The translations under genes and the position numbers were made by a program. Shown here in pieces: positions 29,404-50,102 of a stretch of 64,000 nt of DNA. Origin of the DNA: an uncultured bacterium (GTDB taxonomy: Bacteria > Bacillota_I > Bacilli_A > RF39 > UBA660); assembly GCA_949293285.1 (NCBI GenBank), contig CASFCU010000017.1:2432-66431 (forward strand), written 5' to 3'. The first letter of the stretch is position 1. Each line of letters starts with the position of its first letter. The notes beneath the pieces are model-generated. The model had not been told where the DNA came from. It did no database searches and saw only the letters and a program-made list of their open reading frames with translations.

Positions 29404-29601
29404 CTACTTAACAATCTTTTTCATTTTTTTATTAAATTCTATTCTAGGCATCATGATTAATCTACCACAATTGATACATTTAATCTTTATATCTGCACCA
29501 ATCCTTACAATTTCCCATTCATTAGAACCGCAAGGATGCCCTTTTTTCATGGTAACAATACTACCTATATCATACTTTTTATCATTCATAATATCACTCA
29601 T
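29404..29601 (-). CDS. DUF951 family protein (B. subtilis YyzM-like), conserved downstream of parB
   Basis: DIGSIVTMKKGHPCGSNEWEIVRIGADIKIKCINCGRLIMMPRIEFNKKMKK matches the DUF951 signature (HPCGS ... C..CG). Confidence 0.8.
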   Translation of the reverse strand: MSDIMNDKKYDIGSIVTMKKGHPCGSNEWEIVRIGADIKIKCINCGRLIMMPRIEFNKKMKKIVK

Positions 29602-30484
29602 TAATATTCAATATCTCCAATATTCTATTCAAATCATTAATATTGCTAAAGGAAATATTTATCTTATTATTATTAATTTTTACTTTTGTCCCTAATTTTT
29701 CACACAAGATATTTTCTATATAAGAATATTCTGTTGTTGCTTTTTTCTTAATCTTATGAATTTTCTCTATAGAATCATCTTTAGAAACATTTTCTAGATC
29801 CCTTACATTTAAATTTTCATCGATAATTTTATTTGCTAATGCAACAATTTCATCCTTATTTTCCATCTTACTAAGTACCCTTGCATGACTCATAGATATT
29901 TTATTGTCAATAATCATATCCTTTACTTCTTCTGGCAAACTTAAAAGTCCTAACATATTGGTAATATGACTTCTGCTTTTTCCAAGTCTTTTTGCAAGTT
30001 CATCTTGAGTAATCTTCATACTATCTATTAAACTTCGATAAGCCATTGCTTCTTCTATAGAATTCAAATTCTCTCTTTGTAAATTTTCAAGAAGAGCAAT
30101 TTCCATCATTTCTTGATCAGAAAAATTTCTCACTATAGCAGGAATCTTACTAAGTCCTGCCATCATAGATGCCTTAACACGACGTTCTCCTGCTATAATT
30201 TCATATCCTTTAACAGAACTTTTCTTTACAATAATAGGCTGAAAAACTCCGTGTTCTTTTATCGAATTTGCAAGTTCTTGTAACTTTTCTTCATCAAAAA
30301 CTTTTCTAGGTTGATATGGATTCGTCCTTAACTGATCCAAATCCAACTCTACTATCTCATCCTTCGGAGTAGAATCAATTATTTTTTCTTCTATACTATC
30401 AAAATCAATTTGTTCATTATTAAACAATTCTTCTAACCCTTTTCCAAGAGCTCTTCTTTTATAATTGTTGTCCATTTCTCTCAA
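29594..30484 (-). CDS. parB: Chromosome partitioning protein ParB/Spo0J
   Basis: ParB box GERRVKAS and an HTH; KGLGRGLEELF-like N-terminus; 296 aa downstream of parA. Confidence 0.9.
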   Translation of the reverse strand: MREMDNNYKRRALGKGLEELFNNEQIDFDSIEEKIIDSTPKDEIVELDLDQLRTNPYQPRKVFDEEKLQELANSIKEHGVFQPIIVKKSSVKGYEIIAGERRVKASMMAGLSKIPAIVRNFSDQEMMEIALLENLQRENLNSIEEAMAYRSLIDSMKITQDELAKRLGKSRSHITNMLGLLSLPEEVKDMIIDNKISMSHARVLSKMENKDEIVALANKIIDENLNVRDLENVSKDDSIEKIHKIKKKATTEYSYIENILCEKLGTKVKINNNKINISFSNINDLNRILEILNINE

Positions 30485-31250: not shown

Positions 31251-31721
31251 CTAACATCACCTTTTCTATCAATCTCGTATTTCTATTTTATCAAACATTA
31301 ACCAATTAATAAATCCTTTTTAAAAAAAAGATAATTATAAATAGCTCTCTTTTAAAAATAAGCCATAAAAATCCTAGAGAATTCTTATCATATTTAACAA
31401 ATTACGACATTTAAAGTTTTATAATCTAAAATAAGTGAAAATAGATAATAGTTCCATGAAAACTTAAAAAACAGCTAACTCTTTATCGATATTTAAATCA
31501 TCTCACGAAACTCCATACTCACTCTACTTCTATAAAAAATACTTTCTACAATAAACCTAATGTTAATATTTATCAATAGATTCAGAAACAATAATACTAT
31601 CCAACATTTTACTAGCAGCTTCTCATTTTCCATCACAAGATATCAAATAAAAAGTAAACACATCATCTAGTGTCTACTTTTATTGACAAATCATATAAAT
31701 TATCTTTTTATCAATATCAAA

Positions 31722-33077
31722 TTAAATATTCTTGTCGACCTTTATTGTAATCTGATAAGTATTAACAGAATCATTTTCTTCCACTAAAACCTTATATCCT
31801 TTACTTTCTATATTCTTAATAGTAGACTTTATATCATTTATAACTGGAGAAACATCCTTTTTATCTGGATTCTCAAAAGCACTAAAATTAAATGATGGAA
31901 TAGATTTAGAACTAGCTAAATTACTATTAGATTGTTCTCCTTGAGAAGAAGCTGAACTAAAAAAAGAATTAAAATCATTCGTATTCTGATTTGATGTTAA
32001 AAAAGAAGAATTGTTATTATTGTTATTATTGTCAGTAATATTTGAAGATAATGGATTGTTAGAACCAAAACCACCAAAAGAATTACTAATCAAACTTGGA
32101 GAATCACCACTACTAAACGAAGAACTCAAATTAGAACTATGATCTTCCATACCATTAGATGGAACAAACTTAAAATTATTAGTATCAGTAACACTAGTAT
32201 CCCTCATTAAATCTTTAACATCCACAGTAGGAGTTTTAGGACCATTAATATCTACTGCACTCTCTCTAATTTTATTAATATCAACAGCTGTTGGATTAAA
32301 CATACTAGAATTTTCTCTAGCTCCCATTTGTTCACCAGTAGAAGGTGATAAATTACTACTAGTTGGTAAAGAATTTTGCTTCTCTTCCTCTTTAAAAGGC
32401 GGTGAAAAAGAAATAGGTTGTTGCACTAATCCATTACCACCAGTTACTTGTGAAGTATCATTTTGTCCTTGTCTATCATTCATTTCTCTAATTTCCTTAT
32501 CTAATTCTCTAACAGTCATTTTATTAGTAATGACTTTATCTAACATTCTTATTTGATCATTTTTATTTGTTAAATTCAATAAACTTCTTGCATGACGCTC
32601 TGATATTTTTTCTTTCAAAAGAGCATCCTGAACTTCATCTGGTAACGCAAGAAGTCTAAGTTTATTAGAAACAACAGATTGCGTCTTTCCCATAGTAGAT
32701 GCTAATTGTTCTTGAGTCATTCCCGGTTCTAACTCTAATATTTTTTGATAGGTTCTAGCTTCCTCAATAGGAGTCAAATCTCTTCTTTGAAGATTCTCGA
32801 TAAGCGCTACTTTCGAACTTTCCTGATCATCTAAATTCTTAACAATTGCAGGAATTTTCGTAAGACCTGCCATAGTAGACGCCTTATATCTCCTTTCTCC
32901 TGCTATAATTTCATACTTATTCTCAACCTTTCTTACAATAATTGGCTGAATAACACCATGTTCTTTAATTGAAATTGCTAACTCTTTTAAAGCCTGATCA
33001 TCAAAAACTTCTCTAGGTTGAAATCTATTTGGTATAATATCATCCAAATATAAATATACAATCTCATTGTTTTCCAT
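31722..33077 (-). CDS. noc: Noc-like ParB-family nucleoid occlusion/partition paralog with a ~250-aa disordered S/N-rich C-terminal extension
   Basis: A ParB N-terminal domain (PNRFQPR ... GERRYKAS) with an HTH, lying between rsmG and parA (the noc position); residues ~200-400 are low complexity (S, N, T, G, poly-N NNNNNNN), followed by a short C-terminal folded segment; RBS AGAGGGTG. Confidence 0.8.
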   Translation of the reverse strand: MENNEIVYLYLDDIIPNRFQPREVFDDQALKELAISIKEHGVIQPIIVRKVENKYEIIAGERRYKASTMAGLTKIPAIVKNLDDQESSKVALIENLQRRDLTPIEEARTYQKILELEPGMTQEQLASTMGKTQSVVSNKLRLLALPDEVQDALLKEKISERHARSLLNLTNKNDQIRMLDKVITNKMTVRELDKEIREMNDRQGQNDTSQVTGGNGLVQQPISFSPPFKEEEKQNSLPTSSNLSPSTGEQMGARENSSMFNPTAVDINKIRESAVDINGPKTPTVDVKDLMRDTSVTDTNNFKFVPSNGMEDHSSNLSSSFSSGDSPSLISNSFGGFGSNNPLSSNITDNNNNNNNSSFLTSNQNTNDFNSFFSSASSQGEQSNSNLASSKSIPSFNFSAFENPDKKDVSPVINDIKSTIKNIESKGYKVLVEENDSVNTYQITIKVDKNI

Positions 33078-33140
33078 CGAAACACCCTCTATCCTTTTGT
33101 ATTATCATCTATTATACATTATAAAATAAAAAATCCATTT

Positions 33141-33845
33141 TTACAATGGATTTCTTTTGATTTTATCAATACTTCTAGGAAATTTCTTAATAGTATGTCC
33201 CTTTTTCTTCATACAAACCAGAGTTCTAATGCTATTCTCCACTGGCAAACTAAACCTTTTAATTTCTTCTATATCAAGTGATAAATTAGATAAAATACGA
33301 TTTATAGTACTAAGTTCACTATCACAATTAGCTTTCATGAAAACAAACTTACCACCAATTTTTAAAGATCTTACCGAAATTTCAGATAAAACACTAAGAC
33401 TAGCTACGGCTCTTGCAGTAATAACATCAAAAACCTCTTCATTCTTTCTAGAAAAATCTTCCATCCGCCAATGAACAGCTTCAATATTTTGCAATTTTAA
33501 CTTTCGAATCACATCATTTAAATAAATTACTCTTTTATTCAAAGAATCCACTAAAACAATTTTTATATGCGGAAAAAATATTTTTAAAACGATACCTGGA
33601 AAACCAGCCCCACTCCCTACATCACATAAAGTAATATTTTGATTAAAATCAATAACTTTAATCAATGTTAAACTATCATAAAAATGCTTTAAATAAACAT
33701 CTTCTTCAGAAACAATAGTAGTTAAATTAATCTTCTCGTTCCATTCCAACAATAACTGATAAAAATAATCTAATTTTTCTAATATCTCTTTAGAGACTTT
33801 AATTCCTAATTTTTCAACTTCTAATACAAACTCTTCTTTATTCAT
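33141..33845 (-). CDS. rsmG: 16S rRNA (guanine527-N7)-methyltransferase RsmG (GidB)
   Basis: SAM motif DVGSGAGFPGIVLKI; 234 aa; overlaps the mnmG stop. Confidence 0.9.
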   Translation of the reverse strand: MNKEEFVLEVEKLGIKVSKEILEKLDYFYQLLLEWNEKINLTTIVSEEDVYLKHFYDSLTLIKVIDFNQNITLCDVGSGAGFPGIVLKIFFPHIKIVLVDSLNKRVIYLNDVIRKLKLQNIEAVHWRMEDFSRKNEEVFDVITARAVASLSVLSEISVRSLKIGGKFVFMKANCDSELSTINRILSNLSLDIEEIKRFSLPVENSIRTLVCMKKKGHTIKKFPRSIDKIKRNPL

Positions 33846-35779: not shown

Positions 35780-36133
35780 TTACTTTTTCCCTCTCAACTC
35801 AACCATGATAACAATAATTAAATAAACAATAAATAAAGCAATATTCCAAACAATTAAATCTTTAGTAACACTTGGTCTTATAATATAATTAAGTACGATT
35901 ACAGCTAATGCATATAACAAACTACTAGATAACATATCTTCAATCGTTTTATTTTTCATACTAGGTACAACAATGGATAAAAATATCAATAACTCAGAAA
36001 AAACGAAAACTCCAAATGAAATTAACTGATTAATCGTTTTTTCAAAATTACCAAGTCCAAAAAATAATAAACAAGTAAGAAGAACTACCAAAATAAACAC
36101 CATAGTTTTAACAAAATAATTTTCTTTTTTCAC
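35780..36133 (-). CDS. Hypothetical small integral membrane protein (4 predicted TM helices)
   Basis: 117 aa; hydrophobic segments only; inserted between mnmE and mnmG, where most Firmicutes have none. Confidence 0.4.
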   Translation of the reverse strand: MKKENYFVKTMVFILVVLLTCLLFFGLGNFEKTINQLISFGVFVFSELLIFLSIVVPSMKNKTIEDMLSSSLLYALAVIVLNYIIRPSVTKDLIVWNIALFIVYLIIVIMVELRGKK

Positions 36134-40366: not shown

Positions 40367-41728
40367 GTGGATAATTCTCTTTTATGGTCCAAGATTTTGG
40401 AAAAAATTAAAGCAGAAATCAATTCTTTATCGTATCAAACCTGGTTTGAAGAAACAAAACTATATGATTTAAGTAAAGGTGTAGCAAAAATATTAGTGCC
40501 ATATGCACTACATAAAGATCATTTAGCAAATAACTATAAAAAACTTATTATTTCTTGTTTCATTGAAGAAATAGGAGAATCCGTAGAATTAGAATTTTTA
40601 ATACAAGAAGATTTAATAGAAGATGATAATGACACTCATGAAAAAATATTAGAAGAAAATATCTACAATAATAATACTTTTGAATCGAATCTTAATAAAA
40701 AATATACTTTTGAAAATTTTATTGTAGGAAACAGCAATAGATTTGCCCATGCTGCAGCATTAGCCGTTGCCGAAAAACCGGGAGAAACCTACAATCCATT
40801 ATTTATATATGGAAACAGTGGATTAGGAAAAACACACTTAATGCACGCAATAGGAAACTATATAGAAAAAAATAGCAACAAAAGAATTCTTTATGTAACA
40901 AGTGAAACTTTTGTCTCAGAATTCGTGGAAATAACAAAAAAACAAGAAAATAAAAGCAATTTTGAATACATAGACTTTTTCAAACAAAAATATAGAAATA
41001 TCGATGTATTAATCATTGATGATATCCAATTTCTAGCGGGAGCAACAGAATCTCAAAAAGAATTTTTCCACACCTTTAATAACTTATATGGTGAAAATAA
41101 ACAAATAATTATATCATCCGATAGATCACCAAACGATTTAAAAGTCTTTGAAGATAGACTAAGAACCAGATTTAGTTGGGGACTACCAGTAAATATATAC
41201 CCACCGGACTTTGAACTAAAAGTTGCCATTTTAAAAAAACGGATAGTAGGGGAACAAGTAACAAAAGAGATTCCAGAACAAGTAATTGAATACATGGCAT
41301 CAAATATAGGAACAGATATAAGACAACTAGAAGGCAGCGTAAATAGACTAATGGCATACTCTACCATGATGGGAGCAGAAATAGATTTAAATCTAGCAAT
41401 CGAAGCTTTAAAAGATTATGTAAATAAAGGATTCAGTGAAAAAAATGATGTAAGTAGAATTCAAAAAATAGTAGCAGATTATTTCAAAATATCAATCGAA
41501 GATTTAAAATCAAAAAAAAGAAACGCCGACATTGCGTTTCCAAGGCAAATAGCCATGTACCTATGCAGAAAATTAACCGACGAATCTTTTCCTAAAATAG
41601 GAATAGAATTTGGAGGAAAAGATCATTCTACAGTAATGCACTCTTGTGAAAAAATAGAACAAGAAATAAAAAACAATAAAAGTTTTGCAGAAACGATAGA
41701 TAAATTGGAAAAAGATATTCACAATTAA
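40367..41728 (+). CDS. dnaA: Chromosomal replication initiator protein DnaA
   Basis: GTG start with a GGGAGGTGAGG RBS; AAA+ Walker A GNSGLGKTHL; C-terminal DNA-binding domain; 453 aa. Confidence 0.95.
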   Translation: MDNSLLWSKILEKIKAEINSLSYQTWFEETKLYDLSKGVAKILVPYALHKDHLANNYKKLIISCFIEEIGESVELEFLIQEDLIEDDNDTHEKILEENIYNNNTFESNLNKKYTFENFIVGNSNRFAHAAALAVAEKPGETYNPLFIYGNSGLGKTHLMHAIGNYIEKNSNKRILYVTSETFVSEFVEITKKQENKSNFEYIDFFKQKYRNIDVLIIDDIQFLAGATESQKEFFHTFNNLYGENKQIIISSDRSPNDLKVFEDRLRTRFSWGLPVNIYPPDFELKVAILKKRIVGEQVTKEIPEQVIEYMASNIGTDIRQLEGSVNRLMAYSTMMGAEIDLNLAIEALKDYVNKGFSEKNDVSRIQKIVADYFKISIEDLKSKKRNADIAFPRQIAMYLCRKLTDESFPKIGIEFGGKDHSTVMHSCEKIEQEIKNNKSFAETIDKLEKDIHN

Positions 41729-43066: not shown

Positions 43067-43525
43067 ATGGAAAATTATGAAATAAATGAAGAGACTTATG
43101 CAGTAATATCTGAATATTTTGGACAAACCAAAATTATTGAGAAAGATAGTGAATGGATCATCGAAAGTCAGGCTTATAAGATTATGGATGAAAGCTGTCA
43201 ATATTATGGAAGTAGTTATAAAGGAAGATTAACAGCCTCCAAAAAAATGTTAGAATGTAGCTATAAATTACCAATCGTGGTAGAAGAAAGCAGTTGTCTG
43301 ATATTTTTTCCTACAAAATCTTCACTAGTAGATGATTGTTGTTGGATTAATTTAAACAGTATAAAAAAAGTGGAAAAAGATGGCAAAAACACTAAAATTA
43401 TCTTTAATAATGACAAAGAAATCGTATTGGAAATATCAAAATTATCAATCGATAATCAAATCTATAGATCTACTAAGTTAGAATCATTAATTAAAAAGAG
43501 AATAAATGCAAAAAAAAGGATATAA
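43067..43525 (+). CDS. comK: ComK family competence transcription factor homolog
   Basis: YEINEETYAVIS...SCQYYGSSYKGR...KLPIVVEESSCLIFFPTKSS...CCWINL...SIDNQIYRSTKL aligns block-for-block with B. subtilis ComK (SCRFFGSSYAGR, KPPIMVDPSNQIFLFPTLSS, CGWI, NQVYRTAWL); 152 aa. Confidence 0.75.
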   Translation: MENYEINEETYAVISEYFGQTKIIEKDSEWIIESQAYKIMDESCQYYGSSYKGRLTASKKMLECSYKLPIVVEESSCLIFFPTKSSLVDDCCWINLNSIKKVEKDGKNTKIIFNNDKEIVLEISKLSIDNQIYRSTKLESLIKKRINAKKRI

Positions 43526-49122: not shown

Positions 49123-49153
49123 TTCTAATTCTTCTTTTTTTTGTGGAAAAAGA

Positions 49154-49169
49154 TGTTTCACGTGAAACA
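49154..49169. promoter_or_regulatory. parS: parS centromere-like site (TGTTTCACGTGAAACA, a perfect 16-bp palindrome; 16/16 to consensus tGTTNCACGTGAAACa)
   Basis: Lies within a 20-bp perfect palindrome GATGTTTCACGTGAAACATC, 32 nt after the gyrA stop; embedded in a 57-bp repeat shared with 49840-49888. Confidence 0.8.
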
Positions 49170-49256
49170 TCTAATACTAGAAACGGAGTAAAAGTTTTAA
49201 AATTTAAAATTTAGTAAAGAAAAATTTACAAACCCTAGGATATTTCTATAAAAAAG

Positions 49257-49285
49257 TTGAAATCTTTTTTCACATATAGTAAAAT
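49257..49285 (+). promoter_or_regulatory. Sigma-A type promoter of the SRP RNA gene (TTGAAA -17- TAAAAT)
   Basis: The -35 TTGAAA lies at 49257-49262; a 17-nt spacer; the -10 TAAAAT lies at 49280-49285; a predicted TSS ~49292 coincides with the 5' end of the SRP RNA terminal helix. Confidence 0.65.
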
Positions 49286-49291
49286 CTTGTT

Positions 49292-49372
49292 GATGCAATA
49301 GATACAGCGGAACCAGGTCAGGATTGGAAAATAGCAGCCTTAACGTATATAGTGTCTATGTGCATCATTTTT
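49292..49372 (+). ncRNA. ffs: Small (4.5S-like) signal recognition particle RNA
   Basis: The domain IV consensus is present: ACAGCGGAACCAGGTCAGGATTGGAAAATAGCAGCC (cf. CCAGGUCAGGUCCGGAAGGAAGCAGCC, including the GGAA tetraloop). The 5' GATGCAATAGATAC pairs with the 3' GTGTCTATGTGCATC, which is followed by a T8 run. Confidence 0.8.
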
Positions 49373-49387
49373 TTTGGAGTTGATTGT

Positions 49388-49822
49388 ATGAAAGATGATT
49401 CATATTATATGAATATAGCTTATAGAGAAGCCTTAAAGGCTTTGAAAAAAAATGAAATACCAGTAGGTGCAATAATTGTCTCTAATATTGATGGGAAAAT
49501 TATATCTAAAGGTCATAATTTAAGAGATAGCAAATACATAGTTACAAAACATGCTGAAATCATTGCAATTGAAAAAGCAAATAAGAAAAGGAAAAATTGG
49601 CGATTAAATGATTGTACATTATATACAACATTAAAGCCTTGTGATATGTGCATGTCTGTAATTTTTAGTTGTAAAATACCTAGAGTGATATATTCAGCAA
49701 ATTCAACTTGCTTAAATAATGCAAATAATTGTAGAATATCACAGATAGAAAATAACGAGTTGATTTTAAAAAGTTCATCAATAATTCAAAAAGCATTTGT
49801 TAATATTAGAAATCAAAAATAA
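49388..49822 (+). CDS. tadA: tRNA-specific adenosine deaminase TadA (CDA fold)
   Basis: HAE and PCxxC zinc-binding motifs (KHAEIIAIE ... LKPCDMCMSVI); start ATG 49388 after a GGAG RBS. The ORF-track N-terminal extension overlaps the ffs terminator. Confidence 0.85.
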   Translation: MKDDSYYMNIAYREALKALKKNEIPVGAIIVSNIDGKIISKGHNLRDSKYIVTKHAEIIAIEKANKKRKNWRLNDCTLYTTLKPCDMCMSVIFSCKIPRVIYSANSTCLNNANNCRISQIENNELILKSSSIIQKAFVNIRNQK

Positions 49823-49851
49823 AGAGATAGATCATTATCTGTGGAAAAAGA

Positions 49852-49867
49852 AGTTTCACGTGAAACA
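49852..49867. promoter_or_regulatory. parS: parS centromere-like site, second copy (AGTTTCACGTGAAACA; 15/16 to consensus)
   Basis: Lies 30 nt after the tadA stop, inside the second copy of the 57-bp repeat (tgtggaaaaagaaGTTTCACGTGAAACatagataaaaagaaacggagta). Confidence 0.75.
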
Positions 49868-49905
49868 TAGATAAAAAGAAACGGAGTAGATATTTCCCAA
49901 AAGAG

Positions 49906-49925
49906 AATATTTCCTGGGAAATATT
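49906..49925. promoter_or_regulatory. Noc-binding-site-like palindrome AATATTTCC-TG-GGAAATATT (core ATTTCCTGGGAAAT, 13/14 to NBS ATTTCCCGGGAAAT); may double as the tadA terminator
   Basis: A 9-bp inverted repeat with a 2-nt centre, followed by TTTTAATT; a half-site ATATTTCCC also lies at 49890-49898. Confidence 0.45.
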
Positions 49926-50102
49926 TTTAATTAAAACAGAGAAGATAAAAGATAAATAAGCAAAGATTGTGGAAAAAATATTAGCAACAGAATATTTGGA
50001 AAAATATTGATAAAGAAAAATAAATGTAAATAAATATGTTCATAAAATTTAAGAAATATAAAAAATGTGTTATAATACTAGAGAAAAGTGAAAGGAGGGA
50101 AT

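What the first reader, a model, noticed from the sequence alone, without database searches (positions are those of the whole stretch)
31722..33077. Noc-position ParB paralog carries a ~250-residue serine/asparagine-rich disordered tail
The gene between rsmG and parA (the canonical noc slot) encodes a normal ParB N-terminal and HTH core (PNRFQPR, GERRYKAS) of ~195 aa. It then continues for ~250 more residues of extreme low complexity: S, N, T, G and D dominate, with poly-N NNNNNNN and repeated SS/NN runs; DNA 31722-32480 includes aataataataataacaacaat. It ends in a ~35-aa segment (KGYKVLVEENDSVNTYQITIKVDKNI) that looks folded. Canonical Noc is ~280 aa and uses an N-terminal amphipathic helix for membrane binding; this protein lacks that helix and instead has a prion-like tail. 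Such a tail could mediate condensate formation or an alternative tethering mode. I am not aware of this architecture being described for Noc/ParB proteins.
Basis: seen in the sequence. Interest (0 to 1): 0.65.

Follow-up and report, generated by a model that had tools for sequence, protein, structure and literature searches.

The report
Noc-like clamp with long disordered linker
The gene is a real relative of the cell-division safeguard Noc that has lost Noc's membrane-binding helix and instead has a roughly 200-residue floppy linker with short conserved motifs; the design is shared by hundreds of uncultured gut bacteria and I found no description of it.

Summary
The 451-aa ORF at 31722-33077(-) is real and sits in the rsmG–[noc]–parA–parB slot. 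Its core is Noc-type. It scores best against Noc structures and the Noc model, and it has Noc specificity residues (Q, K, R at three of four positions).

The "tail" is not a tail. The last ~45 residues are the canonical Noc C-terminal domain, so the S/N-rich stretch is a ~205-aa insertion in the DBD–CTD linker (~15 aa in B. subtilis). The N-terminal membrane helix is absent, with stop codons 8-9 codons upstream of the start.

More than 240 homologue clusters in two clades of uncultured small-genome Bacilli ('Bacilli bacterium' and 'Acholeplasma sp.' MAGs) share this design. Spacer length and composition vary freely between them: N/S-rich, A/P-rich, or 19-aa tandem repeats. Four short motifs and the CTD are conserved. 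"Prion-like" is not a conserved property (Q+N is 22 per 80 aa here).

A 15/16 Noc-binding site lies 40 bp from a parS site upstream of dnaX. It is a perfect site in a sister strain. Low-GC relatives carry arrays of perfect NBS and parS there.

Best reading: an NBS-loading CTP clamp whose effector end moved into linker motifs. What the motifs bind is inferred, not shown. I rate it a new variant of a known kind.

The parts
31722..33077 (-). Whole ORF, 451 aa plus stop: Noc-lineage ParB-family protein
   Evidence: The identical protein is found on 8 contigs.
32787..33059 (-). ParB/Srx N-terminal (CTP-binding) domain, residues 7-97. PNRFQPR, GERRYK and ENLQRRDL are invariant in the family.
   Evidence: Pfam PF02195, E = 1.5e-35. 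Invariant columns in A2 and A4. AF2 pLDDT 73-90 with alignment A4.
32478..32780 (-). HTH DNA-binding domain, residues 100-200. Noc-type specificity residues Q133, K139 and R161, with A144 at the fourth position.
   Evidence: Pfam PF17762, E = 2.5e-32. Residue mapping, using Jalal 2020. Foldseek TM 0.90-0.91 and rmsd 1.6-1.7 A to the Noc DBD-NBS complex 6y93.
32301..32477 (-). Variable spacer 1 of the linker, residues 201-259. Polar, predicted disordered, not conserved.
   Evidence: pLDDT below 50. Column identity 0-40%.
32193..32300 (-). Conserved linker motif A, residues 260-295: NPTxVDINKIRExAxDIxGPxxPxVDVKDLMKDT
   Evidence: 90-100% conserved positions N261, P262, T263, D266, I267, R271, D276, I277. 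Retained in clade 2 as PSFMNISQIEKNAEDI..VDMDELLK. pLDDT 61-70, with short helices at 267-273 and 287-290.
32154..32174 (-). Conserved linker motif B, residues 302-308: FKFVPxF (F304 invariant)
   Evidence: The clade-2 counterparts KPGKFFNFF and GRFFSLFKK are a positional inference, not an alignment result.
31866..32153 (-). Low-complexity S/N/G/F-rich spacer 2, residues 309-404. It contains the poly-N run (32010-32030), the semi-conserved FxxFF motif (F369-F373, 31959-31973) and the NxASS motif.
   Evidence: Entropy 2.5-2.8 bits. TRF finds only a 9-bp x 2.6 repeat. Motif conservation. pLDDT below 50.
31725..31865 (-). Noc-type C-terminal (dimerisation) domain, residues 405-451: helix 410-425, strands 429-436 and 441-448
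   Evidence: Matches TIGR04285 positions 213-255, E = 2.3e-4 on its own. pLDDT about 90. Conserved in both clades.
33118..33146 (-). Promoter-like site (TTGTAA-17-TATAAT) upstream of the ORF. GGAGG-like RBS AGAGGGTG lies before the ATG.
   Evidence: consensus match only. Sequence.
31650..31681 (-). Terminator-like hairpin plus T-run downstream of the stop codon
   Evidence: consensus match only.
49908..49923 (.). Candidate Noc-binding site TATTTCCTGGGAAATA. It matches the B. subtilis NBS at 15 of 16 positions, and both specificity positions (A1 and C6) are intact in both half-sites.
   Evidence: Expectation from base composition is about 0.0009 per window. The site is a perfect NBS at the same position in the same-species contig L093. 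NBS sequence taken from Jalal 2020.
49852..49867 (.). parS-like site (15/16), 40 bp from the NBS-like site. It is preceded by the DnaA-box variant TTTTCCACA (49840-49848, minus strand).
49154..49169 (.). Perfect parS TGTTTCACGTGAAACA. It is part of a 61-nt repeat shared with the second parS and is preceded by TTTTCCACA (49142-49150, minus strand).
29594..30484 (-). The genuine chromosomal ParB (Spo0J), for contrast. It has the N-terminal LGKGL motif, ParB-type residues R/M/S/S and a weak ParB_C match below Pfam's cutoff.

Best explanation
[quoted passage not shown] It has been re-engineered in a lineage of uncultured, small-genome, low-GC Bacilli.

Shown:
- It keeps the CTP-binding ParB/Srx domain with all nucleotide motifs.
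- It keeps an HTH domain with the Noc specificity residues Gln173, Lys179 and Arg201 (Caulobacter numbering).
- It keeps the Noc-type C-terminal dimerisation domain and the rsmG-noc-parA-parB position.
- It lacks the N-terminal membrane-targeting helix.
- Its DBD-CTD linker is about 205 aa instead of about 15 aa.
- That linker is predicted disordered and is hypervariable in length and composition between relatives.
- The linker nevertheless carries short motifs conserved across two deeply split clades.

Inferred mechanism:
- The dimer loads at NBS sites. The one site in this window lies next to parS, near oriC.
- It binds CTP, closes into a sliding clamp and spreads, as Noc and ParB do.
- The long linkers act as flexible tethers and enlarge the clamp lumen.
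- The embedded motifs are motif A, FKFVPxF and FxxFF. They supply the effector contact that canonical Noc makes with its N-terminal helix.
- That contact is either direct membrane contact through the aromatic motifs or binding of a cell-cycle or envelope partner protein.

The S/N-rich composition itself is spacer filler, not the functional feature.
For: Noc identity:
- TIGR04285 (Noc) scores 288 bits, against 244 bits for the window's own ParB on the same model.
- The best solved structures are Geobacillus and B. subtilis Noc at 207-208 bits, against 173 for B. subtilis ParB.
- The modelled DBD superposes on the Noc-NBS complex at TM 0.90.
- The specificity residues are Q/K/A/R here and in 118 of 137 clade-1 sequences (132 matched the residue pattern). 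The neighbouring ParB has R/M/S/S.
- Q173 and R201 switch specificity, and one Lys at position 179 or 184 suffices (Jalal 2020).
- The CTD matches Noc model positions 213-255.
- Synteny is conserved in relatives.

Linker:
- AF2 gives pLDDT below 50 for 207-260 and 296-400, but about 90 for the DBD and CTD.
- Linker length is 140-270 aa in clade 1.
- Clade 2 shows a ladder of total lengths in 19-aa steps, caused by tandem repeats.
- Composition differs between relatives even at equal genomic GC. The P0130 linker is 43% GC and A/P-rich in a 30% GC locus.

Conserved motifs:
- They are conserved within clade 1.
- They are collinear between the clades, which share 59% core identity. The tail alignment has E = 2e-9.

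Missing helix: every family member has only 14-18 residues before PNRFQPR, apart from one clade-2 sequence with 38.

DNA site:
- A 15/16 NBS lies at 49908. Its expectation is about 0.0009.
- The site is perfect in a sister strain.
- There are 21 perfect NBS in 126 kb of low-GC relatives' dnaX loci, against 0 in 443 kb of the other loci.
Against: - No biochemical activity can be tested here.
- The protein scores below NCBIfam's Noc cut-off (288 against 315 bits).
- Overall core identity to its own ParB (52%) is about the same as to Geobacillus Noc (53%). The Noc assignment therefore rests on specific residues, the CTD and synteny.
- Position 184 is Ala, not Lys. Clade 2 lacks both permissive lysines (Q/T/T-N/R). 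In the Caulobacter ParB scaffold that combination was non-functional.
- The linker motifs carry no net positive charge here, unlike typical bacterial membrane-targeting helices.
- Motif A has only moderate pLDDT (61-70), so there is no sign of a docked structure.
- Only one NBS was found in 64 kb.
- The NBS/parS arrays in relatives could not be tied to genomes that encode the long-linker protein.
Confidence: 0.55

Rival explanations
1. Neutral linker bloat. The protein is a Noc relic that still binds and spreads on DNA but has lost membrane tethering. The linker expanded by slippage and drift because the DBD-CTD connection tolerates any length. The region would have no function of its own.
For: - Spacer length and composition vary enormously. 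In clade 2, strains differ by whole 19-aa repeat units.
- No domain or family matches the linker.
- The linker is predicted disordered.
Against: - Four short islands are conserved at 90-100% within clade 1, while the flanking columns sit at 0-40%.
- The islands stay collinear in clade 2 at 59% core identity. That argues for purifying selection on linker content.
- No family member has reverted to a short linker. The minimum in clade 1 is 140 aa.
Confidence: 0.2
2. Prion-like or condensate-forming tail. The S/N-rich low-complexity region would drive phase separation of the nucleoprotein complex.
For: - Residues 310-395 are S/N/G-rich with interspersed Phe, a 'stickers and spacers' pattern.
- 51 of 129 clade-1 sequences reach at least 30 Q+N per 80 aa.
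- ParB complexes are discussed as condensates in the literature.
Against: - The window protein reaches only 22 Q+N per 80 aa.
- No clade-2 member (0 of 119) reaches the threshold.
- Relatives replace this composition with A/P-rich or acidic P/E/T/Y-repeat linkers while keeping the motifs. The composition is therefore not the conserved trait.
Confidence: 0.12
3. A second centromere-binding ParB that works with the adjacent ParA on parS.
For: - It lies directly upstream of parA.
- It is 52% identical to the neighbouring ParB core.
Against: - It carries Gln and Arg, rather than Arg and Gly/Ser, at the two specificity-switching positions.
- It has no N-terminal LG(K/R)GL ParA-activating peptide, which the neighbouring ParB does have.
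- No Pfam ParB_C match was reported for it. Its last ~45 aa match the Noc model's C-terminal positions instead.
- Clade 2 keeps this protein without any adjacent parA or parB.
Confidence: 0.05
4. Frameshift, assembly error or untranslated region.
For: None found.
Against: - The identical 451-aa protein occurs on 8 contigs from different assemblies.
- Same-species contigs are 99.6-99.7% identical.
- More than 240 homologue clusters keep the Noc CTD in frame after the variable region.
- In-frame motifs are conserved at the protein level.
Confidence: 0.01

Closest known systems
Noc of Bacillus subtilis / Geobacillus thermoleovorans (nucleoid occlusion protein; PDB 7nfu, 7ng0, 7ol9, 6y93)
   Same: - ParB/Srx CTP-binding domain.
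- HTH domain with Gln173, Lys179 and Arg201.
- Noc-type C-terminal domain.
- Gene position between rsmG and parA-parB.
- An NBS-like site on the chromosome.
   Different: - It has no N-terminal amphipathic membrane helix and no helix alpha2. Adams 2015 found that motif in all Noc homologues examined, and it is required for function.
- The DBD-CTD linker is about 205 aa instead of about 15 aa and carries conserved short motifs.
- Position 184 is Ala.
- It scores below the NCBIfam cut-off.
Chromosomal ParB / Spo0J
   Same: Same superfamily and fold. It is a CTP-gated sliding clamp with NTD, DBD, flexible linker and CTD. It is 52% identical in the core to the window's own ParB.
   Different: - It has the NBS-type rather than the parS-type specificity residues.
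- It lacks the ParA-activating N-terminal peptide.
- No ParB_C match was reported for it, whereas its last ~45 aa match the Noc model's C-terminal positions.
- Its linker is about ten times longer.
Staphylococcus aureus Noc (controls replication initiation; PMC5540599)
   Same: - It recognises the same NBS core.
- S. aureus and B. subtilis Noc do not cross-complement, which the authors attribute to species-specific contacts with replication or division factors. Linker motifs could provide contacts of that kind.
- Here the NBS-like site lies next to parS sites that are flanked by DnaA-box variants.
   Different: S. aureus Noc has the canonical short architecture with the N-terminal helix. No role in replication has been tested here.
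FtsZ C-terminal linker plus conserved C-terminal peptide (architectural analogy only; from general knowledge)
   Same: A disordered spacer of highly variable length and composition connects folded parts and presents short conserved partner-binding peptides.
   Different: It is an unrelated protein. This is an analogy, not homology, and was not tested here.

Membership tests
Noc (nucleoid occlusion protein, TIGR04285) | ParB/Srx N-terminal domain with CTP-binding motifs (PxxQPR, GERRxR/K, ENLQR) | tested here: met
   PF02195 E = 1.5e-35. The motifs are invariant in A2 and A4.
Noc (nucleoid occlusion protein, TIGR04285) | NBS specificity residues Q173, K179, K184, R201 (Jalal 2020) | tested here: met
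   Q133, K139, A144, R161, which is 3 of 4. One Lys at position 179 or 184 suffices according to the paper.
Noc (nucleoid occlusion protein, TIGR04285) | Highly conserved N-terminal amphipathic membrane-targeting helix (about aa 1-15), required for function (Adams 2015) | tested here: not met
   Only 15 residues precede PNRFQPR. In-frame stop codons lie 8-9 codons upstream of the ATG. Apart from one clade-2 sequence with 38, all family members have 14-18 residues there.
Noc (nucleoid occlusion protein, TIGR04285) | Noc-type C-terminal dimerisation domain | tested here: met
   Residues 407-449 match model positions 213-255, E = 2.3e-4. pLDDT is about 90. Dimerisation itself was not tested.
Noc (nucleoid occlusion protein, TIGR04285) | Whole-protein score above the curated NCBIfam cut-off (315 bits) | tested here: not met
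   288.1 bits. The shortfall is consistent with the missing N-terminus and the split by the insertion.
Noc (nucleoid occlusion protein, TIGR04285) | Gene between rsmG (gidB) and soj-spo0J | tested here: met
   The same order holds in relatives L006-L008, L101 and L102.
Noc (nucleoid occlusion protein, TIGR04285) | NBS sites on the chromosome, scattered over the origin-proximal part | tested here: inconclusive
   One 15/16 site in 64 kb, lying next to parS. The site is perfect in a sister strain. The genome-wide distribution is not available.
Noc (nucleoid occlusion protein, TIGR04285) | CTP-dependent recruitment of DNA to the membrane and inhibition of division over the nucleoid | not testable with these tools
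   Needs biochemistry and cell biology.
Chromosomal ParB (Spo0J) | parS specificity residues (R173, G201) and N-terminal ParA-activating peptide | tested here: not met
   It has Q and R at these positions, whereas the neighbouring ParB has R and S. There is no LG(K/R)GL peptide.
Prion-like (Q/N-rich) domain | At least 30 Q+N in 80 consecutive residues (criterion recalled from Michelitsch and Weissman) | tested here: not met
   The maximum is 22 per 80, at residues 307-386. 51 of 129 clade-1 sequences and 0 of 119 clade-2 sequences reach 30.

The most novel reading that the evidence does not exclude
Helix-less, long-linker Noc proteins define a distinct origin-organising module in small-genome gut Bacilli. 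In this reading:
- They load at composite NBS-parS (and DnaA-box) sites or arrays next to oriC, side by side with ParB.
- They use linker-embedded short motifs, not an N-terminal helix, to tether the origin region to the membrane or to a cell-cycle partner such as a divisome, segregation or replication-initiation factor.

In that case Noc's effector end would have been relocated, and its job shifted from chromosome-wide occlusion to origin anchoring or control.
Probability: 0.25. Interest if true: 0.8.

Novelty: new variant of a known kind. Interest (0 to 1): 0.6.

Why it matters
In the current model, Noc's function rests on an N-terminal membrane helix released by a CTP switch. This natural, widespread family keeps the clamp, the NBS-type reading head and the dimerisation domain. 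It drops that helix and gains a long disordered linker with conserved motifs. That makes three questions testable:
- Is membrane contact dispensable, relocated, or replaced by a protein partner?
- How does the length of the DBD-CTD linker (the clamp lumen) affect sliding clamps?
- What species-specific contacts do Noc proteins make?

The co-clustered NBS and parS sites near oriC in these lineages suggest that two CTP clamps are loaded side by side. I did not find this described, and it would bear on how small-genome bacteria couple replication, segregation and division. The family also falls below the curated Noc threshold, so it is annotated only as generic ParB.

Tried and rejected
1. A profile of motifs A and B (alignment A3) was searched against the 5.8-billion-protein collection to see whether the motifs occur in other proteins. 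Nothing scored, not even family members, so the search is uninformative.

2. A tail-only phmmer search (residues 255-451) against 1.84 billion representatives gave 13 hits. The 11 whose sequences I read or saw in the earlier hit list (8 read, 3 already listed) are the same kind of protein or fragments of it. The other two, of 60 and 76 aa, were not examined. No canonical-length Noc and no unrelated protein was found.

3. Pfam and NCBIfam scans of the tail alone found only the Noc CTD. The hits to AcrIIA4 (E = 0.015) and DSPc (E = 0.12) are noise.

4. The genome-contig scan found only one close relative (L001), because the peptide patterns were too specific.

5. I tried to link the NBS/parS arrays to genomes that encode the long-linker protein.
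   - The exact-match look-up of ribosomal protein L34 returned only the same species.
   - The 10-kb flanks around four more homologues (L101-L104) contain no NBS or parS.
   - The link is therefore shown only for the window species.

6. The idea that the S/N richness simply reflects the AT-rich genome is rejected as a full explanation. P0130 has an A/P-rich, 43% GC linker in a 30% GC locus.

7. The hydrophobic-moment scan gives FxxFF and motif A moderate amphipathicity (muH 0.49-0.56), comparable to the Noc helix. There is no cationic face, so direct membrane binding stays unproven.

8. Rfam and the small-ORF scan of the 470-bp gap between this gene and parA found nothing.

9. AF2 with the shallow alignment A2 modelled the NTD poorly. 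The more diverse A4 fixed that without raising confidence in the linker.
Full report
OBSERVATION

The ORF at 31722-33077 on the minus strand encodes 451 aa. It lies in a typical Bacilli origin region. The gene order is rpmH-rnpA-yidC-jag-mnmE-(117-aa ORF)-mnmG-rsmG-[this gene]-parA-parB-DUF951-abgT-ychF. dnaA starts at 40367 and the GC skew switches near 40 kb. Window GC is 28.5%.

Pfam finds ParB_N (residues 7-97) and HTH_ParB (residues 100-200) and nothing else.

Composition:
- Residues 201-451 are S 18% and N 14%.
- The linker proper, 201-405, is S 20%, N 15% and F 7%.
- The window's other long ORFs have N 6.7% and S 6.6%.

True low complexity (30-aa entropy 2.5-2.8 bits) is confined to about residues 310-395. 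Residues 201-310 are polar but of normal complexity. The poly-N run is at 32010-32030. At the DNA level there is only a 9-bp x 2.6 repeat.

An N-terminal extension is impossible. The in-frame upstream translation is ...NPL*KWIFYFIMYNR**YKRIEGVS-M, with no start codon after the stops. A promoter-like site (33146-33118) and a terminator-like hairpin (31681-31650) flank the gene (consensus matches only).

IT IS NOT AN ARTEFACT

The identical 451-aa protein is recorded on eight contigs from Logan, ENA and NCBI assemblies. Same-species contigs are 99.6-99.7% identical to the window. The best 120 homologue clusters are all 387-518 aa and align over the full length. A second search seeded with a distant member lists another 120 clusters of 353-775 aa, with the shortest flagged as partial. 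In all of these the C-terminal domain stays in frame after the variable region.

WHAT THE FOLDED PARTS ARE

The NCBIfam Noc model TIGR04285 gives 288 bits, below its cut-off of 315. Residues 6-208 align to model positions 2-203. The window's own ParB scores 244 bits on the same model.

The last 52 residues alone match model positions 213-255 with E = 2.3e-4. The 'folded C-terminal segment' is therefore the canonical Noc C-terminal domain. The S/N-rich stretch is an insertion at the DBD-CTD junction.

In B. subtilis Noc (283 aa) the DBD ends at about residue 228 and the CTD starts at about 244, a linker of about 15 aa (PMC12682051). Here the linker is about 205 aa.

The best solved-structure matches are Geobacillus and B. 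subtilis Noc (207-208 and 187 bits), ahead of B. subtilis ParB (173 bits). The modelled DBD superposes on the Noc DBD-NBS complex 6y93 at TM 0.90-0.91 and rmsd 1.6-1.7 A.

Jalal et al. 2020 showed that four positions (Caulobacter numbering 173, 179, 184, 201) set parS versus NBS specificity. ParB has R/T/A/G and Noc has Q/K/K/R. Q173 reads adenine 1 and R201 reads cytosine 6. One Lys at position 179 or 184 is sufficient.
- This protein has Q133, K139, A144 and R161.
- The neighbouring ParB has R/M/S/S.
- 118 of 137 clade-1 sequences (132 matched the residue pattern) have QKAR.

Overall identity does not discriminate. It is 52% to the window's own ParB core and 53% to Geobacillus Noc. The Noc assignment therefore rests on the specificity residues, the CTD and the synteny.

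The CTP motifs PNRFQPR, GERRYK and ENLQRxDLxPIEEA are invariant across the family.

WHAT IS MISSING

Adams et al. 2015 reported an extremely conserved N-terminal motif (about aa 1-15), predicted to be an amphipathic helix in all Noc homologues they examined. NocN-delta-10 was non-functional, and a heterologous amphipathic helix rescued it. Jalal et al. 2021 showed that CTP binding switches this helix to the membrane-active state.

This family has only 14-18 residues before PNRFQPR in 126 of 126 clade-1 sequences and 119 of 120 clade-2 sequences. A defining feature of Noc is therefore tested and not met. I treat the protein as Noc-derived, not as a canonical Noc.

ANATOMY OF THE LINKER

AlphaFold2 with a diverse alignment (A4) models three parts confidently: the NTD (pLDDT 73-90), the DBD (above 90) and the CTD (about 90; helix 410-425, strands 429-436 and 441-448). 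It leaves 207-260 and 296-400 below 50. Residues 261-295 reach 61-69, with short helices at 267-273 and 287-290 (similar).

A 127-sequence alignment shows conserved islands in a sea of unalignable spacer:
- Motif A: NPTxVDINKIRExAxDIxGPxxPxVDVKDLMKDT (residues 260-295).
- Motif B: FKFVPxF (residues 302-308, F304 invariant).
- A weaker NxFxxFF (residues 367-373).
- NNNxASS (about residues 384-391).
- The CTD.

Linker length in clade 1 ranges from 140 to 270 aa, and the pooled composition is N 21% and S 14%. Composition is not conserved, however:
- P0130 has an Ala/Pro-rich linker (43% GC) in a 30% GC locus.
- P0133 is Q/G/M/N-rich.
- P0110 is A/P/T/Q-rich.

A SECOND CLADE

A second clade (P0138 and relatives) comes from MAGs that NCBI names 'Acholeplasma sp.'. 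Contigs reach 1.16-1.31 Mb. It shares 59% core identity with the window protein, and its tail aligns collinearly from motif A to the CTD (E = 2e-9).

Its first spacer consists of 19-aa tandem repeats (YETPEVPMYEPYTEPVQET). These give a ladder of protein lengths between strains: 472, 491, 529, 548, 567, 586, 606, 625, 643, 662, 681 and 700 aa.

It keeps:
- PSFMNISQIEKNAEDI...VDMDELLK, which corresponds to motif A.
- KPGKFFNFF or GRFFSLFKK, which I equate with motif B by position.
- NQFDLNNFY, which corresponds to FxxFF.
- The CTD.

Its specificity residues are Q/T/(T,N,G)/R, so both permissive lysines are missing. Its gene follows rsmG without any adjacent parA or parB.

The pattern of hypervariable spacers with conserved short motifs is typical of a functional disordered tether. 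It argues against pure drift.

PRION-LIKE?

The maximum Q+N in any 80-aa window is 22 (residues 307-386), below the classical threshold of 30. In clade 1, 51 of 129 sequences reach the threshold. In clade 2, 0 of 119 do. Prion-like composition is thus a lineage-specific flavour of the spacer, not the conserved trait.

MEMBRANE-BINDING POTENTIAL

In 11-residue windows, FxxFF (muH 0.49) and motif A (muH 0.56) are as amphipathic as the Noc helix recalled from memory (muH 0.39). They carry no net positive charge here. The clade-2 GRFFSLFKK and KPGKFFNFF look more like classical targeting sequences. This is suggestive, not evidence.

DNA SITES

The 16-bp NBS is TATTTCCCGGGAAATA and parS is TGTTTCACGTGAAACA. 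They differ at positions 1 and 6.

The window has one NBS-like site, TATTTCCTGGGAAATA, at 49908-49923 (15/16). A1 and C6 are intact in both halves. It is the only match with up to 3 mismatches, and the expectation from base composition is about 0.0009.

It lies 40 bp from a 15/16 parS (49852), in the tadA-dnaX intergenic region. A perfect parS sits at 49154, after gyrA.

The two parS sites are embedded in a 61-nt repeat. Each is preceded by TTTTCCACA. This DnaA-box variant occurs 9 times in the window against 0.75 expected, and it is concentrated at oriC.

In the same-species contig L093 the NBS is perfect.

Loci fetched through DnaX homologues show the same feature at larger scale. The closest low-GC relatives carry arrays of perfect NBS interleaved with parS between gyrA and tadA-dnaX.
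- L013 has a 119-bp unit repeated 4.6 times, each unit holding one parS and one NBS.
- L055 has six perfect NBS. Four of them lie in NBS-parS modules, three of which have a perfect DnaA box (TTATCCACA) between the two sites.
- L017 has five NBS and six perfect parS.
- In total there are 21 perfect NBS in 126 kb of low-GC loci, against none in 443 kb of the other loci.

I could not show that these array-bearing genomes encode the long-linker protein. The regions are about 17 kb apart and flanks are limited to 10 kb. The link is direct only for the window species. The roughly 21-kb loci around the homologous genes contain no NBS or parS.

MECHANISM

Shown:
- Domain identities.
- Noc-type reading head.
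- Missing helix.
- Disordered, hypervariable linker with conserved motifs.
- An NBS next to parS near oriC.

Inferred from the established behaviour of ParB and Noc:
- The dimer nucleates at NBS, binds CTP, closes its N-gate and slides.
- DNA is held in the lumen delimited by the two linkers and the CTD dimer. With two linkers of about 205 residues, that lumen would be far larger than in canonical clamps.
- The linker motifs are the only conserved surface that could replace the lost effector helix.
- I think protein-partner binding (motif A) and/or weak membrane contact (the aromatic motifs) are the most likely roles.

Pang et al. 2017 found that B. subtilis and S. aureus Noc bind the same sites but do not cross-complement. 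They attributed this to species-specific contacts with replication or division factors. That fits the idea of lineage-specific interaction motifs.

COMPARISON AND NOVELTY

The protein works like Noc or ParB (a CTP clamp on specific sites) and descends from Noc. It fails two membership criteria: the N-terminal helix and the curated score. Its linker is also more than ten times longer and carries motifs.

Searches of the held literature found no description of Noc or ParB proteins with such linkers, or of Noc in Mollicutes-like lineages. [quoted passage not shown]

I rate it a new variant of a known kind, with interest 0.6. The architecture is real, widespread and unexpected to a Noc/ParB specialist. 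The function of the linker remains inferential.

Noticed in passing
window 49137-49976: A composite origin-proximal site cluster lies between gyrA and dnaX. Two copies of a 61-nt repeat each hold the DnaA-box variant TTTTCCACA abutting a parS site (49154 perfect, 49852 at 15/16). The second copy is followed 40 bp later by a 15/16 NBS (49908). A third TTTTCCACA is at 49968. TTTTCCACA occurs 9 times in the window against 0.75 expected, mostly at oriC (40189, 40198, 40299).
   Followed up: partly
L013 2793-3341; L055 100-1500; L017, L024, L014, L015, L016, L086: Low-GC relatives (fetched via DnaX) carry arrays of perfect NBS interleaved with parS upstream of tadA/dnaX. In L013 the array is a 119-bp tandem unit. 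In L055, three of the four NBS-parS modules have a perfect DnaA box (TTATCCACA) between the two sites. In total there are 21 perfect NBS in 126 kb, against 0 in 443 kb of the other loci. I am not aware of such co-clustering of NBS with parS having been described. Whether these genomes encode the long-linker Noc is unknown.
   Followed up: partly
L014 5041, L016 5066, L086 5054, L024 5140, L055 3247: An NBS (perfect in three of the five loci, one mismatch in L024 and L055) recurs inside the dnaX coding sequence, about 1.04-1.14 kb after the start, in five different relatives. The window's dnaX has no counterpart.
   Followed up: no
P0141, P0189, P0214 and about 100 related proteins (clade 2); locus L010 10001-11989: The linker of the 'Acholeplasma sp.' clade is built of 19-aa tandem repeats (YETPEVPMYEPYTEPVQET). 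Copy number differs between strains, giving a ladder of protein lengths from 472 to 700 aa in steps of 19.
   Followed up: partly
L010 and L104 (clade 2 loci): In clade 2 the Noc-like gene follows rsmG, but no parA or parB is adjacent. It may be the only ParB-family gene at the origin. Its specificity residues are Q/T/(T,N,G)/R, without the permissive lysines.
   Followed up: no
window 31251-31721: A 470-bp AT-rich non-coding gap separates this gene from parA. Relatives have only about 90-130 bp there (L006, L101, L102, L103). It has no Rfam match and no convincing ORF.
   Followed up: partly
window 35780-36133 (-): A 117-aa predicted membrane protein with no Pfam match is inserted between mnmE and mnmG. 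It is present in the same-species contig L091 and absent from relative L006. Relatives L101 and L102 instead carry a 1403-aa BcrAD_BadFG/DUF2229 gene there, plus a 438/439-aa N_methyl (pilin-like) gene between rsmG and the Noc-like gene.
   Followed up: no
window 43067-43525 (+): A ComK-family gene sits between dnaN and recF. The same arrangement holds in relatives of both clades (L006, L010, L104).
   Followed up: no
L009 1349-3575: In the relative encoding P0130, a DUF87 ATPase (584 aa) and a 134-aa ORF are inserted between rsmG and the Noc-like gene. The linker of P0130 is Ala/Pro-rich (43% GC) in a 30% GC locus.
   Followed up: no
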